Shown: positions 1 through 3,576 of the stretch, piece by piece
Position numbering within the stretch: position 1 is the first letter of the stretch
Layout: each line of letters starts with the position of its first letter
Position numbers and translations under genes: made by a program
The notes under the pieces: generated by a model
Database searches by the model: none
Told to the model about the DNA's origin: nothing
The model's input: only the letters and a program-made list of their open reading frames with translations
Sequence record: LC710217.1
Length of the DNA: 3,576 nucleotides
From: Escherichia phage MS2
Direction: 5' to 3' (one strand)

Positions 1-48
1 GGCCGATTCTATTTTTCGCCGTTTACCTGCTTATCTTTTTCCTGCTCA

Positions 49-55
49 ACTTCCT
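49..55 (+). promoter_or_regulatory. Candidate upstream complementary sequence (UCS) that can pair with the maturation-gene Shine-Dalgarno
   Basis: acttcct (49..55) can pair with aggaggt (135..141) as 6 Watson-Crick pairs plus one G-U wobble. Levivirus maturation-gene translation is known to be controlled by SD sequestration in a long-range 5' UTR helix. The exact partner is assigned by inspection only. Confidence 0.4.
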
Positions 56-134
56 GTCGAGCTAATGCCATTTTTAATGTCTTTAGCGAGACGCTACCAT
101 GGCTATCGCTGTAGGTAGCCGGAATTCCATTCCT

Positions 135-141
135 AGGAGGT
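135..141 (+). promoter_or_regulatory. Shine-Dalgarno sequence of the maturation (A) protein gene
   Basis: aggaggt lies 7-8 nt upstream of the GTG at 149..151. This is a strong, near-consensus SD. Confidence 0.85.
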
Positions 142-148
142 TTGACCT

Positions 149-1330
149 GTGCGAGCTTTTAGTACCCTTGATAGGGAGAACGAGACCTTCGTCCCCTCCG
201 TTCGCGTTTACGCGGACGGTGAGACTGAAGATAACTCATTCTCTTTAAAATATCGTTCGAACTGGACTCCCCGTCGTTTTAACTCGACTGGGGCCAAAAC
301 GAAACAGTGGCACTACCCCTCTCCGTATTCACGGGGGGCGTTAAGTGTCACATCGATAGATCAAGGTGCCTACAAGCGAAGTGGGTCATCGTGGGGTCGC
401 CCGTACGAGGAGAAAGCCGGTTTCGGCTTCTCCCTCGACGCACGCTCCTGCTACAGCCTCTTCCCTGTAAGCCAAAACTTGACTTACATCGAAGTGCCGC
501 AGAACGTTGCGAACCGGGCGTCGACCGAAGTCCTGCAAAAGGTCACCCAGGGTAATTTTAACCTTGGTGTTGCTTTAGCAGAGGCTAGGTCGACAGCCTC
601 ACAACTCGCGACGCAAACCATTGCGCTCGTGAAGGCGTACACTGCCGCTCGTCGCGGTAATTGGCGCCAGGCGCTCCGCTACCTTGCCCTAAACGAAGAT
701 CGAAAGTTTCGATCAAAACACGTGGCCGGCAGGTGGTTGGAGTTGCAGTTCGGTTGGTTACCACTAATGAGTGATATCCAGGGTGCATATGAGATGCTTA
801 CGAAGGTTCACCTTCAAGAGTTTCTTCCTATGAGAGCCGTACGTCAGGTCGGTACTAACATCAAGTTAGATGGCCGTCTGGTGTATCCAGCTGCAAACTT
901 CCAGACAACGTGCAACATATCGCGACGTATCGTGATATGGTTTTACATAAACGATGCACGTTTGGCATGGTTGTCGTCTCTAGGTATCTTGAACCCACTA
1001 GGTATAGTGTGGGAAAAGGTGCCTTTCTCATTCGTTGTCGACTGGCTCCTACCTGTAGGTAACATGCTCGAGGGCCTTACGGCCCCCGTGGGATGCTCCT
1101 ACATGTCAGGAACAGTTACTGACGTAATAACGGGTGAGTCCATCATAAGCGTTGACGCTCCCTACGGGTGGACTGTGGAGAGACAGGGCACTGCTAAGGC
1201 CCAAATCTCAGCCATGCATCGAGGGGTACAATCCGTATGGCCAACAACTGGCGCGTACGTAAAGTCTCCTTTCTCGATGGTCCATACCTTAGATGCGTTA
1301 GCATTAATCAGGCAACGGCTCTCTAGATAG
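149..1330 (+). CDS. mat: Maturation protein (A protein / assembly protein), GUG-initiated, 393 aa
   Basis: ORF of 393 codons starting GTG at 149 and ending TAG at 1328..1330. The translation (MRAFSTLDRENETFVPSVRVYADGETEDNSF...LDALALIRQRLSR) matches my recollection of the MS2 A protein. A GUG start with a strong upstream SD is the known arrangement. First gene in canonical levivirus order. Confidence 0.96.
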   Translation: MRAFSTLDRENETFVPSVRVYADGETEDNSFSLKYRSNWTPRRFNSTGAKTKQWHYPSPYSRGALSVTSIDQGAYKRSGSSWGRPYEEKAGFGFSLDARSCYSLFPVSQNLTYIEVPQNVANRASTEVLQKVTQGNFNLGVALAEARSTASQLATQTIALVKAYTAARRGNWRQALRYLALNEDRKFRSKHVAGRWLELQFGWLPLMSDIQGAYEMLTKVHLQEFLPMRAVRQVGTNIKLDGRLVYPAANFQTTCNISRRIVIWFYINDARLAWLSSLGILNPLGIVWEKVPFSFVVDWLLPVGNMLEGLTAPVGCSYMSGTVTDVITGESIISVDAPYGWTVERQGTAKAQISAMHRGVQSVWPTTGAYVKSPFSMVHTLDALALIRQRLSR

Positions 1331-1343
1331 AGCCCTCAACCGG

Positions 1344-1366
1344 AGTTTGAAGCATGGCTTCTAACT
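1344..1366 (+). promoter_or_regulatory. Coat-gene initiator hairpin with the AUG in the loop, preceded by SD ggag (1342..1345)
   Basis: agtt (1344..1347) pairs with aact (1363..1366) and gaagc (1349..1353) pairs with gcttc (1357..1361), leaving atg 1354..1356 as the loop. GGAG sits about 8 nt upstream of the ATG. This matches the well-studied MS2 coat initiator hairpin whose stability tunes coat translation. Confidence 0.7.
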
Positions 1367-1746
1367 TTACTCAGTTCGTTCTCGTCGACAATGGCGGAAC
1401 TGGCGACGTGACTGTCGCCCCAAGCAACTTCGCTAACGGGGTCGCTGAATGGATCAGCTCTAACTCGCGTTCACAGGCTTACAAAGTAACCTGTAGCGTT
1501 CGTCAGAGCTCTGCGCAGAATCGCAAATACACCATCAAAGTCGAGGTGCCTAAAGTGGCAACCCAGACTGTTGGTGGTGTAGAGCTTCCTGTAGCCGCAT
1601 GGCGTTCGTACTTAAATATGGAACTAACCATTCCAATTTTCGCTACGAATTCCGACTGCGAGCTTATTGTTAAGGCAATGCAAGGTCTCCTAAAAGATGG
1701 AAACCCGATTCCCTCAGCAATCGCAGCAAACTCCGGCATCTACTAA
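1354..1746 (+). CDS. cp: Major coat (capsid) protein, 130 aa including the initiator Met
   Basis: ORF from ATG 1354 to TAA 1744..1746, immediately followed by an in-frame TAG 1747..1749 (tandem stops). The translation MASNFTQFVLVDNGGTGDVTVAPSNFANGVAEWISSNSRSQAYKVTCSVRQSSAQNRKYTIKVEVPKVATQTVGGVELPVAAWRSYLNMELTIPIFATNSDCELIVKAMQGLLKDGNPIPSAIAANSGIY matches the MS2 coat protein as I recall it. Confidence 0.98.
   Translation: MASNFTQFVLVDNGGTGDVTVAPSNFANGVAEWISSNSRSQAYKVTCSVRQSSAQNRKYTIKVEVPKVATQTVGGVELPVAAWRSYLNMELTIPIFATNSDCELIVKAMQGLLKDGNPIPSAIAANSGIY
1446..1452 (+). promoter_or_regulatory. Min Jou long-distance interaction, 5' partner (inside the coat gene)
   Basis: tgaatgg at 1446..1452 is the exact reverse complement of ccattca at 1757..1763, just upstream of the replicase start. 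The 7-bp helix does not extend on either side. It corresponds to the known MS2 interaction that represses replicase initiation until ribosomes translating the coat gene open it. Confidence 0.8.
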
Positions 1747-1924
1747 TAGACGCCGGCCATTCAAACATGAGGATAACCCATGTCGAAGACAACAAAGAAG
1801 TTCAACTCTTTATGTATTGATCTTCCTCGCGATCTTTCTCTCGAAATTTACCAATCAATTGCTTCTGTCGCTACTGGAAGCGGTGATCCGCACAGTGACG
1901 ACTTTACAGCAATTGCTTACTTAA
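1697..1924 (+). CDS. lys: Lysis protein L, 75 aa, in the +1 frame overlapping the coat 3' end and replicase 5' end
   Basis: ORF from ATG 1697 to TAA 1922..1924. The translation METRFPQQSQQTPASTNRRRPFKHEDNPCRRQQRSSTLYVLIFLAIFLSKFTNQLLLSLLEAVIRTVTTLQQLLT has the hydrophobic C-terminal segment typical of MS2 L. It matches my recollection of MS2 L except N at residue 27, where I recall Y. There is no strong SD, consistent with the known coupling of L translation to coat-gene termination. Confidence 0.93.
   Translation: METRFPQQSQQTPASTNRRRPFKHEDNPCRRQQRSSTLYVLIFLAIFLSKFTNQLLLSLLEAVIRTVTTLQQLLT
1757..1763 (+). promoter_or_regulatory. Min Jou long-distance interaction, 3' partner (upstream of the replicase start)
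   Basis: ccattca is the reverse complement of 1446..1452 (tgaatgg). Confidence 0.8.
1765..1783 (+). promoter_or_regulatory. Translational operator (TR) hairpin: coat-protein binding site and packaging signal covering the replicase SD and AUG; loop variant with A at -5
   Basis: acatgaggataacccatgt. Stems acat/atgt and gg/cc, bulged A at 1770 (-10), 4-nt loop 1773..1776 (ataa), replicase ATG at 1780..1782, SD gagga at 1769..1773. The canonical MS2 operator as I recall it is ACAUGAGGAUUACCCAUGU with loop AUUA. Here position 1775 (-5) is A, not U. Confidence 0.9.
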
Positions 1925-3417
1925 GGGACGAATTGCTCACAAAGCATCCGACCTTAGGTTCTGGTAATGACGAGGCGACCCGTCGTACCTTAGCTATCGC
2001 TAAGTTACGGGAGGCGAATGATCGGTGCGGTCAGATAAATAGAGAAGGTTTCTTACATGACAAATCCTTGTCATGGGATCCGGATGTTTTACAAACCAGC
2101 ATCCGTAGCCTTATTGGCAACCTCCTCTCTGGCTACCGATCGTCGTTGTTTGGGCAATGCACGTTCTCCAACGGTGCCTCTATGGGGCACAAGTTGCAGG
2201 ATGCAGCGCCTTACAAGAAGTTCGCTGAACAAGCAACCGTTACCCCCCGCGCTCTGAGAGCGGCTCTATTGGTCCGAGACCAATGTGCGCCGTGGATCAG
2301 ACACGCGGTCCGCTATAACGAGTCATATGAATTTAGGCTCGTTGTAGGGAACGGAGTGTTTACAGTTCCGAAGAATAATAAAATAGATCGGGCTGCCTGT
2401 AAGGAGCCTGATATGAATATGTACCTCCAGAAAGGGGTCGGTGCCTTTATCAGACGCCGGCTCAAATCCGTTGGTATAGACCTGAATGATCAATCGATCA
2501 ACCAGCGTCTGGCTCAGCAGGGCAGCGTAGATGGTTCGCTTGCGACGATAGACTTATCGTCTGCATCCGATTCCATCTCCGATCGCCTGGTGTGGTGTTT
2601 TCTCCCACCTGAGCTATATTCATATCTCGATCGTATCCGCTCACACTACGGAATCGTAGATGGCGAGACGATACGATGGGAACTATTTTCCACAATGGGA
2701 AATGGGTTCACATTTGAGCTAGAGTCCATGATATTCTGGGCAATAGTCAAAGCGACCCAAATCCATTTTGGTAACGCCGGAACCATAGGCATCTACGGGG
2801 ACGATATTATATGTCCCAGTGAGATTGCACCCCGTGTGCTAGAGGCACTTGCCTACTACGGTTTTAAACCGAATCTTCGTAAAACGTTCGTGTCCGGGCT
2901 CTTTCGCGAGAGCTGCGGCGCGCACTTTTACCGTGGTGTCGATGTCAAACCGTTTTACATCAAGAAACCTGTTGACAATCTCTTCGCCCTGATGCTGATA
3001 TTAAATCGGCTACGGGGTTGGGGAGTTGTCGGAGGTATGTCAGATCCACGCCTCTACAAGGTGTGGGTACGGCTCTCCTCCCAGGTGCCTTCGATGTTCT
3101 TCGGTGGGACGGACCTCGCTGCCGACTACTACGTAGTCAGCCCGCCTACGGCAGTCTCGGTATACACCAAGACTCCGTACGGGCGGCTGCTCGCGGATAC
3201 CCGTACCTCGGGTTTCCGTCTTGCTCGTATCGCTCGAGAACGCAAGTTCTTCAGCGAAAAGCACGACAGTGGTCGCTACATAGCGTGGTTCCATACTGGA
3301 GGTGAAATCACCGACAGTATGAAGTCCGCCGGCGTGCGCGTTATACGCACTTCGGAGTGGCTAACGCCGGTTCCCACATTCCCTCAGGAGTGTGGGCCAG
3401 CGAGCTCTCCTCGGTAG
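1780..3417 (+). CDS. rep: RNA-directed RNA polymerase (replicase beta subunit), 545 aa
   Basis: ORF from ATG 1780 to TAG 3415..3417. The translation begins MSKTTKKFNSLCIDLPRDLSLEIYQ and ends TFPQECGPASSPR, and contains the polymerase motif IGIYGDDIICPS. Last gene in canonical levivirus order, with its start embedded in the operator hairpin. Confidence 0.97.
   Translation: MSKTTKKFNSLCIDLPRDLSLEIYQSIASVATGSGDPHSDDFTAIAYLRDELLTKHPTLGSGNDEATRRTLAIAKLREANDRCGQINREGFLHDKSLSWDPDVLQTSIRSLIGNLLSGYRSSLFGQCTFSNGASMGHKLQDAAPYKKFAEQATVTPRALRAALLVRDQCAPWIRHAVRYNESYEFRLVVGNGVFTVPKNNKIDRAACKEPDMNMYLQKGVGAFIRRRLKSVGIDLNDQSINQRLAQQGSVDGSLATIDLSSASDSISDRLVWCFLPPELYSYLDRIRSHYGIVDGETIRWELFSTMGNGFTFELESMIFWAIVKATQIHFGNAGTIGIYGDDIICPSEIAPRVLEALAYYGFKPNLRKTFVSGLFRESCGAHFYRGVDVKPFYIKKPVDNLFALMLILNRLRGWGVVGGMSDPRLYKVWVRLSSQVPSMFFGGTDLAADYYVVSPPTAVSVYTKTPYGRLLADTRTSGFRLARIARERKFFSEKHDSGRYIAWFHTGGEITDSMKSAGVRVIRTSEWLTPVPTFPQECGPASSPR
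2794..2805 (+). other. Catalytic YGDD motif (RdRp motif C) within the replicase
   Basis: Codons tac ggg gac gat in the rep frame encode Y-G-D-D within IGIYGDDII. This is the conserved active-site motif of levivirus replicases. Confidence 0.9.
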
Positions 3418-3576
3418 CTGACCGAGGGACCCCCGTAAACGGGGTGGGTGTGCTCGAAAGAGCACGGGTCCGCGAAAGCGGTGGCTCCACCGAAAGGTGG
3501 GCGGGCTTCGGCCCAGGGACCTCCCCCTAAAGAGAGGACCCGGGATTCTCCCGATTTGGTAACTAGCTGCTTGGCG
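3418..3576 (+). other. 3' untranslated region with a series of stable stem-loops; the terminal hairpin is truncated
   Basis: GC-rich noncoding tail after the rep stop. Hairpins read by eye: 3431..3444 (ccccg-UAAA-cgggg), 3450..3465 (gtgctc-GAAA-gagcac), 3470..3481 (ccgc-GAAA-gcgg), 3487..3500 (ccacc-GAAA-ggtgg), 3503..3514 (gggc-UUCG-gccc) and 3541..3553 (cggga...tcccg). The 5' arm of the terminal hairpin (ggtaactagc, 3558..3567) and its loop (tgcttg, 3568..3573) are present, but the 3' arm and terminal CCCA are missing. Confidence 0.8.

What the first reader, a model, noticed from the sequence alone, without database searches (positions are those of the whole stretch)
1..40. Non-canonical 5' terminus: first ~40 nt do not look like a levivirus 5' end
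Levivirus plus strands begin with 5' GGG followed by a very stable GC-rich terminal hairpin needed by the replicase. In MS2 I recall GGGUGGGACCCCUUUCGGGGUCC. Here the MS2-like sequence (cctgctcaacttcctgtcgagctaatgcc...) only starts near position 41. Upstream is a T-rich stretch (ggccgattctatttttcgccgtttacctgcttatcttttt) that is about 19 nt longer than the segment it replaces and has no obvious potential to form the terminal hairpin. Possible explanations are vector, adapter or primer-derived sequence, a chimeric read or misassembled terminus, or a deliberately engineered leader. A genome with this 5' end would be expected to be replication-defective as RNA.
Basis: partly seen in the sequence, partly recalled or inferred. 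Interest (0 to 1): 0.55.

Follow-up and report, generated by a model that had tools for sequence, protein, structure and literature searches.

The report
Host gene fragment fused to MS2
The odd first 40 bases of this phage MS2 genome are a piece of the E. coli host gene agaD joined on in place of the true viral 5' end, almost certainly a sequencing-library artefact and not a feature of the virus.

Summary
Window 40..3575 is phage MS2 nt 21..3556 (99.4-99.6% identical), and the authentic first 20 nt (GGGUGGGACCCCUUUCGGGG) are missing.

The replacement sequence has an identified origin. Window 1..45 matches the sense strand of the E. coli agaD coding sequence 45/45 (nt 398-442 of the gene). It is present in 5266 of 5426 complete E. 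coli genomes, and among species representatives it occurs only in Escherichia/Shigella.

The host and viral parents overlap by 6 nt (TCCTGC, window 40..45). Random end-joining gives an overlap this long about 0.13% of the time. The crossover lies in the 3' arm of the very stable MS2 5' hairpin. That combination is the signature of a polymerase stalling at the hairpin and switching template. Most likely this was reverse transcriptase during cDNA synthesis, and the chimeric read then extended the contig.

Related records support an artefact. One that differs from the window by one base across the viral sequence they share (LC710218.1) carries Illumina adapters at both ends. The Qbeta record of the same series lacks its first 10 nt. 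The window also lacks the last 13 nt of MS2.

The junction occurs in no other public sequence searched. I rate it an artefact of low interest, useful mainly for database hygiene.

The parts
1..39 (+). Host-only segment: E. coli agaD coding sequence, sense strand (MG1655 NC_000913.3 3285875..3285913; agaD nt 398-436). It replaces MS2 nt 1-20.
   Evidence: 45/45 identity over window 1..45 to agaD in 5266 of 5426 E. coli genomes, E = 6e-14. Orientation and gene from the annotation. Exact match length of 45 checked directly. No phage match.
40..45 (+). Crossover zone: TCCTGC, identical in agaD (nt 437-442) and in MS2 (nt 21-26). This is a 6-nt microhomology within the 3' arm of the MS2 5'-terminal hairpin.
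   Evidence: Three-way alignment. Megablast places the start of MS2 similarity at window 40. Random junctions reach an overlap of 6 nt or more with P = 0.0013. The predicted hairpin covers MS2 nt 1-28.
46..3575 (+). MS2-only body: MS2 nt 27..3556, with intact mat (149..1330), cp (1354..1746), lys (1697..1924) and rep (1780..3417) genes.
   Evidence: 99.6% identity to GQ153927.1 and 99.4% to NC_001417.2 over window 40..3575. ORF lengths of 393/130/75/545 aa equal those of the reference. 14 differences from GQ153927 in total, 13 of them inside 46..3575 and the 14th at base 3576.
1748..1783 (+). Coat-protein operator hairpin. It is not part of the artefact and is listed as a landmark showing that the body is a normal MS2 genome.
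   Evidence: Rfam RF02359, 56.4 bits against a gathering score of 40.
3576..3576 (+). Terminal base G, mismatched to MS2 nt 3557 (T). The contig stops here, 13 nt short of the MS2 3' end (...TAGTTACCACCCA is missing).
   Evidence: Alignment of the 3' ends and the variant list.

Best explanation
The window is a shotgun-assembled MS2 genome whose 5' end comes from a chimeric cDNA.

Proposed mechanism: during first-strand synthesis the reverse transcriptase copied the MS2 plus strand 3'->5'. It entered the very stable 5'-terminal hairpin and stalled after copying nt 26-21, just before the four-G:C core of the stem. The nascent cDNA end (complement of UCCUGC) re-paired with the same hexamer in a host nucleic acid, either agaD mRNA in sense orientation or the equivalent strand of contaminating genomic DNA. 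Synthesis then continued on the host template.

Authentic reads over nt 1-20 are scarce for the same structural reason. The assembler therefore extended the contig with the chimeric read, adding 39 host nt in place of 20 viral nt.

What is shown: the identity of both parents, their polarity, the 6-nt microhomology, and the position of the crossover in the hairpin. What is inferred: that the switching enzyme was RT in vitro, and that the extension rests on one or a few reads.
For: Parents identified:
- Window 1..45 equals agaD sense strand, 45/45.
- Window 40..3575 equals MS2 nt 21..3556.

Signature of a template switch:
- A 6-nt overlap is far too short for a k-mer assembler to mis-join, so the junction must exist in a read. 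It is also much longer than blunt ligation gives (P = 0.0013).
- The crossover sits in the 3' arm of a -23 kcal/mol hairpin.
- The acceptor stretch is U-rich and unstructured (-4.2 kcal/mol, z = -0.56).
- RT template switching at GC-rich structure, with microhomology at the breakpoints, is a documented in vitro artefact (PMC2927423).

The record series lacks true termini:
- LC710218.1 differs from the window at one base over window 45..3555, the viral stretch the two share. Its viral insert starts at MS2 nt ~27, directly after a 34-nt exact Illumina adapter.
- LC710219.1 (Qbeta) starts at nt 11 of complete Qbeta genomes.
- The window itself lacks the last 13 nt of MS2.

The junction is unique:
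- The junction 30-mer is absent from IMG/VR, the JGI metagenomes and the GTDB genomes.
- No phage record carries the leader.

In vivo evidence:
- Direct RNA sequencing of MS2-infected E. coli found no virus-host recombinants (PMC13077995).
Against: No raw reads were available. I could not check the read support for the junction or confirm that an RT step was used.

The MS2 replicase also travels 3'->5' on the plus strand, so a replicase switch in vivo would leave the same sequence signature.

agaD is annotated as cryptic in K-12. Its mRNA should therefore be rare, which makes an mRNA acceptor a little surprising. Contaminating host DNA as acceptor would remove that difficulty.
Confidence: 0.8

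Rival explanations
1. An in vivo copy-choice recombinant. During minus-strand synthesis in an infected cell, the MS2 replicase left the plus strand at the 5' hairpin and continued on agaD mRNA. This produced a dead-end chimeric RNA that was then sequenced.
For: It predicts the same polarity, microhomology and hairpin position as the RT model. The sense orientation of agaD fits an mRNA acceptor. From my own knowledge, levivirus replicases can recombine RNAs in vitro: the Qbeta replicase RQ RNAs contain host-derived segments. Intramolecular MS2 hybrids were seen by direct RNA sequencing.
Against: The same direct-RNA study saw no virus-host junctions in vivo. The product would be a minus strand, which is not packaged, or a plus strand lacking the 5' GGG and hairpin, so it could not amplify to assembly-level abundance. 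The junction appears in no other dataset. The related records show generic end artefacts.
Confidence: 0.07
2. A library or assembly chimera formed without a template switch, by blunt ligation of a host fragment to a viral cDNA fragment, PCR jumping, or an assembler mis-join.
For: Host nucleic acid is expected in phage lysates. The same series of records shows poor end clean-up, with adapters left in LC710218.1.
Against: Blunt ligation gives 6 nt or more of shared sequence only 0.13% of the time. A 6-nt overlap cannot seed a de Bruijn or overlap join, and it is too short for annealing at PCR temperatures (established knowledge). Neither route explains why the break lies in the 5' hairpin.
Confidence: 0.1
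3. A genuine, heritable 5' leader of a viable MS2 variant, or a deliberately engineered or vector-derived leader.
For: The sequence appears to be presented as a near full-length genome. All four genes are intact.
Against: The 5' GGG and the terminal hairpin are lost. Both are needed so that the minus strand ends in the CCC that the replicase initiates on (established levivirus biology). No other phage record has the leader. There is no vector or adapter match. An internal coding fragment of agaD has no design rationale. The nearest relative shows no sign of the leader, although its contig stops at nt ~27.
Confidence: 0.02

Closest known systems
RT template-switch artefacts ('RT-facts') in cDNA and RNA-seq libraries
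   Same: The donor site lies at a strong GC-rich secondary structure. There is short microhomology (6 nt) at the breakpoint. Both parents have the same polarity relative to the polymerase. The junction is a singleton not seen elsewhere (PMC2927423).
   Different: The documented example is intramolecular and produces deletions. Here the switch is intermolecular, from a viral template to a host one. The enzyme responsible could not be established without the raw data.
Host or adapter contamination at contig ends of deposited viral 'complete genomes'
   Same: Non-viral sequence is confined to the extreme terminus, and the true terminus is missing. The sister record LC710218.1 carries Illumina adapters at both ends, and LC710219.1 is truncated.
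   Different: The contaminant here is a host chromosomal gene fragment joined through microhomology, not a synthetic oligonucleotide.
Natural virus-host RNA recombinants (for example host inserts in cytopathogenic BVDV, or Qbeta replicase RQ RNAs with host-derived segments)
   Same: A host RNA segment is joined to viral RNA, plausibly by copy choice.
   Different: Those recombinants are replication-competent and recur or are selected. This junction removes an essential cis-element, is unique, and no such MS2-host recombinants were seen in vivo. The resemblance to the BVDV and RQ RNA cases rests on my own knowledge plus the titles listed.

Membership tests
Authentic MS2/levivirus 5' terminus | Starts with 5' GGG and matches nt 1-20 of MS2 | tested here: not met
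   The window starts GGCCGATT... MS2 similarity begins only at window 40, which is MS2 nt 21.
Authentic MS2/levivirus 5' terminus | Stable GC-rich terminal hairpin | tested here: not met
   Window 1..45 folds at -4.2 kcal/mol, z = -0.56. MS2 nt 1..41 fold at -23.2 kcal/mol, z = -4.2. In the 150-nt fold the leader stays essentially unpaired (compared).
Escherichia phage MS2 (Emesvirus zinderi) genome, body of the window | Near-identity to MS2 across the genome, with the four genes intact and the operator hairpin present | tested here: met
   99.4-99.6% identity over 3536 nt. ORFs of 393/130/75/545 aa. RF02359 at 56.4 bits.
E. coli agaD coding sequence (window 1..45) | Exact match to annotated agaD, restricted in taxonomic range | tested here: met
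   45/45 identity, E = 6e-14, in 5266 of 5426 genomes, on the sense strand of agaD. The exact 45-mer occurs only in E. coli, S. flexneri and E. albertii among the representatives of 185,579 species.
Copy-choice (template-switch) chimera | Two collinear parents, same polarity, microhomology at the junction beyond chance | tested here: met
   TCCTGC is shared by both parents. P(6 nt or more) = 0.0013 for random joins.
Copy-choice (template-switch) chimera | Donor site at a polymerase pause site or strong structure | tested here: met
   The crossover at MS2 nt 21-26 lies in the 3' arm of the predicted nt 1-28 hairpin, next to the G17-G20: C9-C12 core.
Copy-choice (template-switch) chimera | Identity of the switching polymerase (RT in vitro or replicase in vivo) | not testable with these tools
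   This needs raw reads, the library protocol, 5' RACE or direct RNA sequencing.
Adapter / vector contamination | Match to a synthetic adapter or cloning vector | tested here: not met
The full-length plasmid-collection hits are all agaD on E. coli replicons. UniVec itself was not available.
Heritable virus-host recombinant | Junction recurs in independent isolates or datasets | tested here: not met
   The junction 30-mer has 0 hits in viral, metagenome and genome collections. No phage record has the leader.

The most novel reading that the evidence does not exclude
The junction could be a real molecule made in an infected cell. In that reading the MS2 replicase stalled at the 5' hairpin and switched to a host agaD mRNA. 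That would be a natural levivirus-host RNA recombinant captured by sequencing, and a direct view of how host sequence could enter an RNA phage genome.
Probability: 0.06. Interest if true: 0.5.

Novelty: not a real feature. Interest (0 to 1): 0.1.

Why it matters
The main value is data quality.
- A sequence that reads as a nearly complete MS2 genome carries 39 nt of E. coli chromosome at its 5' end.
- It lacks the true first 20 nt and the last 13 nt.
- Analyses of levivirus UTR structure, terminus conservation, primer design or host-gene capture would be misled if it were taken at face value.
- The case shows that the very stable levivirus 5' hairpin is a predictable place for cDNA truncation and chimera formation. 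Termini of shotgun-assembled ssRNA phage genomes therefore need RACE-level confirmation.

If the chimera were instead formed in vivo, it would be a rare documented host-levivirus RNA recombination event. Nothing here favours that reading.

Tried and rejected
- Adapter origin. I first saw loose resemblances between window 1..40 and the Illumina P7 tail (GCCGT...CTGCTT), and between window 1..40 and the MS2 3' region (GATTCT...CTGCTT). Both were dropped once the 45/45 agaD match appeared. The adapter word check was negative.
- Phage origin of the leader. Only chance-level hits were found.
- Plasmid or vector origin. Only agaD on E. coli replicons and weak 30-nt hits at 87% identity were found.
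- Recurrence of the junction. Three collection scans gave 0 hits.
- Provenance through exact protein look-ups of the maturation protein and the replicase. Neither is on record.
- Literature search for the accession and for the source study. Nothing was found. One search failed on syntax.
- Neighbouring accessions. LC710217, LC710216 and LC710220 are not in the collection. LC710217 may be the window itself, which is inference only.
- Rfam. There is no family over window 1..45.

Full report
**What the window is.** The 3576-nt window is a genome of Escherichia phage MS2.
- Megablast against 50,697 phage records aligns window 40..3575 to nt 21..3556 of complete 3569-nt MS2 genomes. Identity is 99.6% to GQ153927.1 and 99.4% to NC_001417.2.
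- The four genes are intact and have the reference lengths: mat 149..1330, cp 1354..1746, lys 1697..1924, rep 1780..3417.
- Rfam finds the coat-protein operator hairpin at 1748..1783 and nothing else.

**Checking the observation.**
- The reference begins GGGTGGGACCCCTTTCGGGGTCCTGCTCAAC..., and the window begins GGCCGATTCTATTTTTCGCCGTTTACCTGCTTATCTTTTTCCTGCTCAAC....
- The offset between the two is +19 nt.
- No phage record matches window 1..39 beyond chance. The best hits have E of 0.8 or worse and cover 20-31 nt.
- MS2 nt 1..41 fold into a 12-bp terminal hairpin at -23.2 kcal/mol (z = -4.2, 0 of 200 shuffles as good).
- Window 1..45 reaches only -4.2 kcal/mol (z = -0.56). In the 150-nt fold it stays essentially unpaired, while the downstream MS2 structure is unchanged.

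**Where the 40 nt come from.**
- A blastn search of window 1..45 against 5,426 complete E. coli genomes gives a 45/45 match (E = 6e-14). It covers at least 80% of the query in 5266 genomes, and every listed hit is annotated agaD, the PTS galactosamine transporter subunit IID.
- In MG1655 the match is NC_000913.3 3285875..3285919, on the coding strand of agaD (b3140), at nt 398-442 of the gene. An O157:H7 genome gives the same orientation.
- Among representatives of 185,579 bacterial and archaeal species, the exact 45-mer is found only in E. coli, Shigella flexneri and Escherichia albertii.
- The plasmid collection gives only agaD on E. coli replicons, three of them chromosome-sized.
- The leader is therefore host chromosomal sequence. 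It is not an adapter, a vector or an engineered element.

**Anatomy of the junction.** The host match runs to window 45 and the MS2 match starts at window 40, so TCCTGC (40..45) belongs to both parents.
- In a simulation of 2 million random host-MS2 joins, an ambiguous overlap of 6 nt or more occurred with P = 0.0013.
- Six nucleotides are far too few for a k-mer or overlap assembler to join two sequences. The junction must therefore exist in at least one read.
- The same overlap is far more than blunt ligation would give. This points to a copy-choice event.
- The crossover corresponds to MS2 nt 21-26. These lie in the 3' arm of the predicted nt 1-28 hairpin, immediately before its G17-G20: C9-C12 core.
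- Any polymerase copying the plus strand 3'->5' meets this stem last. Both parents have the polarity expected for a switch from MS2 plus strand to agaD sense strand.

**Most likely mechanism.** Reverse transcriptase stalled in the hairpin. The nascent cDNA end re-paired with UCCUGC in an unstructured, U-rich stretch of host nucleic acid, and synthesis continued there.
- RT template switching promoted by GC-rich structure, with microhomology at the breakpoints, is a documented in vitro artefact (PMC2927423).
- True reads over nt 1-20 are depleted for the same structural reason. A single chimeric read can therefore extend the contig. This last step is inferred.

**Supporting context from related records.**
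- LC710218.1 ('MS2 GI_B', wastewater, Yamanashi, host E. coli) differs from the window at one base over window 45..3555 (window 2596, rep S273C).
- Its viral insert begins at MS2 nt ~27, directly after a 34-nt exact Illumina index-adapter sequence. The same adapter is present as an inverted copy at the other end.
- That record is deposited as the reverse complement of the plus strand, with features placed as if it were forward.
- LC710219.1 ('Qbeta GIII_C', same series) begins at nt 11 of complete Qbeta genomes.
- The window also stops 13 nt short of the MS2 3' end, and its last base is mismatched.
- The termini in this series are therefore those of shotgun contigs and were not experimentally determined. 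LC710217 is missing from the collection and may be the window itself. That is inference only.

**Rival explanations.**
- *Replicase copy choice in vivo.* An MS2 replicase switch in an infected cell would leave the same signature, and sequence alone cannot exclude it. It is disfavoured for three reasons. Direct RNA sequencing of infected cells found intramolecular MS2 hybrids but no virus-host recombinants (PMC13077995). The product lacks the 5' GGG and hairpin, so it could not amplify (established levivirus biology). The junction 30-mer is absent from IMG/VR, the JGI metagenomes and the GTDB genomes.
- *Ligation, PCR jumping or an assembler mis-join.* These are disfavoured by the microhomology statistics and by the position of the break in the hairpin.
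- *A heritable or engineered leader.* This is essentially excluded.
- *A point against the favoured model.* agaD is annotated as cryptic in K-12, so its mRNA should be rare. Contaminating host DNA may have been the acceptor instead, in which case the sense orientation is a 50:50 coincidence.

**Verdict.** The feature is an artefact of host origin, and its interest is low apart from database hygiene. Window 1..39 should be trimmed, and the sequence should be regarded as MS2 nt 21-3556.

Noticed in passing
window 1775 (MS2 nt 1756), within the operator hairpin 1748..1783: A T>A change turns the operator loop AUUA into AUAA (U at -5 to A) and causes Y27N in the lysis protein. The same 61-mer is present in 25 of 291 MS2 records: LC710218.1 and 24 FJ7996xx/FJ7997xx isolates grown on TOP10 F'. 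It is therefore a recurrent variant in the coat-protein binding site.
   Followed up: partly
window 3557..3576: The contig ends inside the last 3' hairpin of MS2, 13 nt short of ...TAGTTACCACCCA. Its final base is G where MS2 has T. One base is too little to say whether this is a second junction or a read-end error.
   Followed up: partly
L001 (LC710218.1) 1..50 and 3556..3605: This deposited 'complete genome', one base different from the window over the shared viral region, carries the Illumina TruSeq index adapter (index CTATCGCT) as inverted copies at both ends, 48 of 50 positions matching. It is deposited as the reverse complement, with gene features placed as if it were forward.
   Followed up: yes
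L006 (LC710219.1) 1..150: The Qbeta record of the same series starts at nt 11 of complete Qbeta genomes. By my recollection of the Qbeta 5' end, that is inside the 5' hairpin. Loss of the 5' end at the terminal hairpin therefore recurs across the three records examined.
   Followed up: partly
window 2596; 881..882; 272: rep S273C is the only difference from LC710218.1 over the shared viral region. Relative to other MS2 genomes the maturation protein carries G42R and, through two adjacent substitutions, V245.
   Followed up: no
window 2021..2026 and 3470..3482 (MS2 nt 2002-2007, 3451-3463): The clustered differences from NC_001417.2/V00642 are not shared by GQ153927.1, which agrees with the window at these positions. 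They look like peculiarities of the old reference sequence and not variants of this genome.
   Followed up: partly
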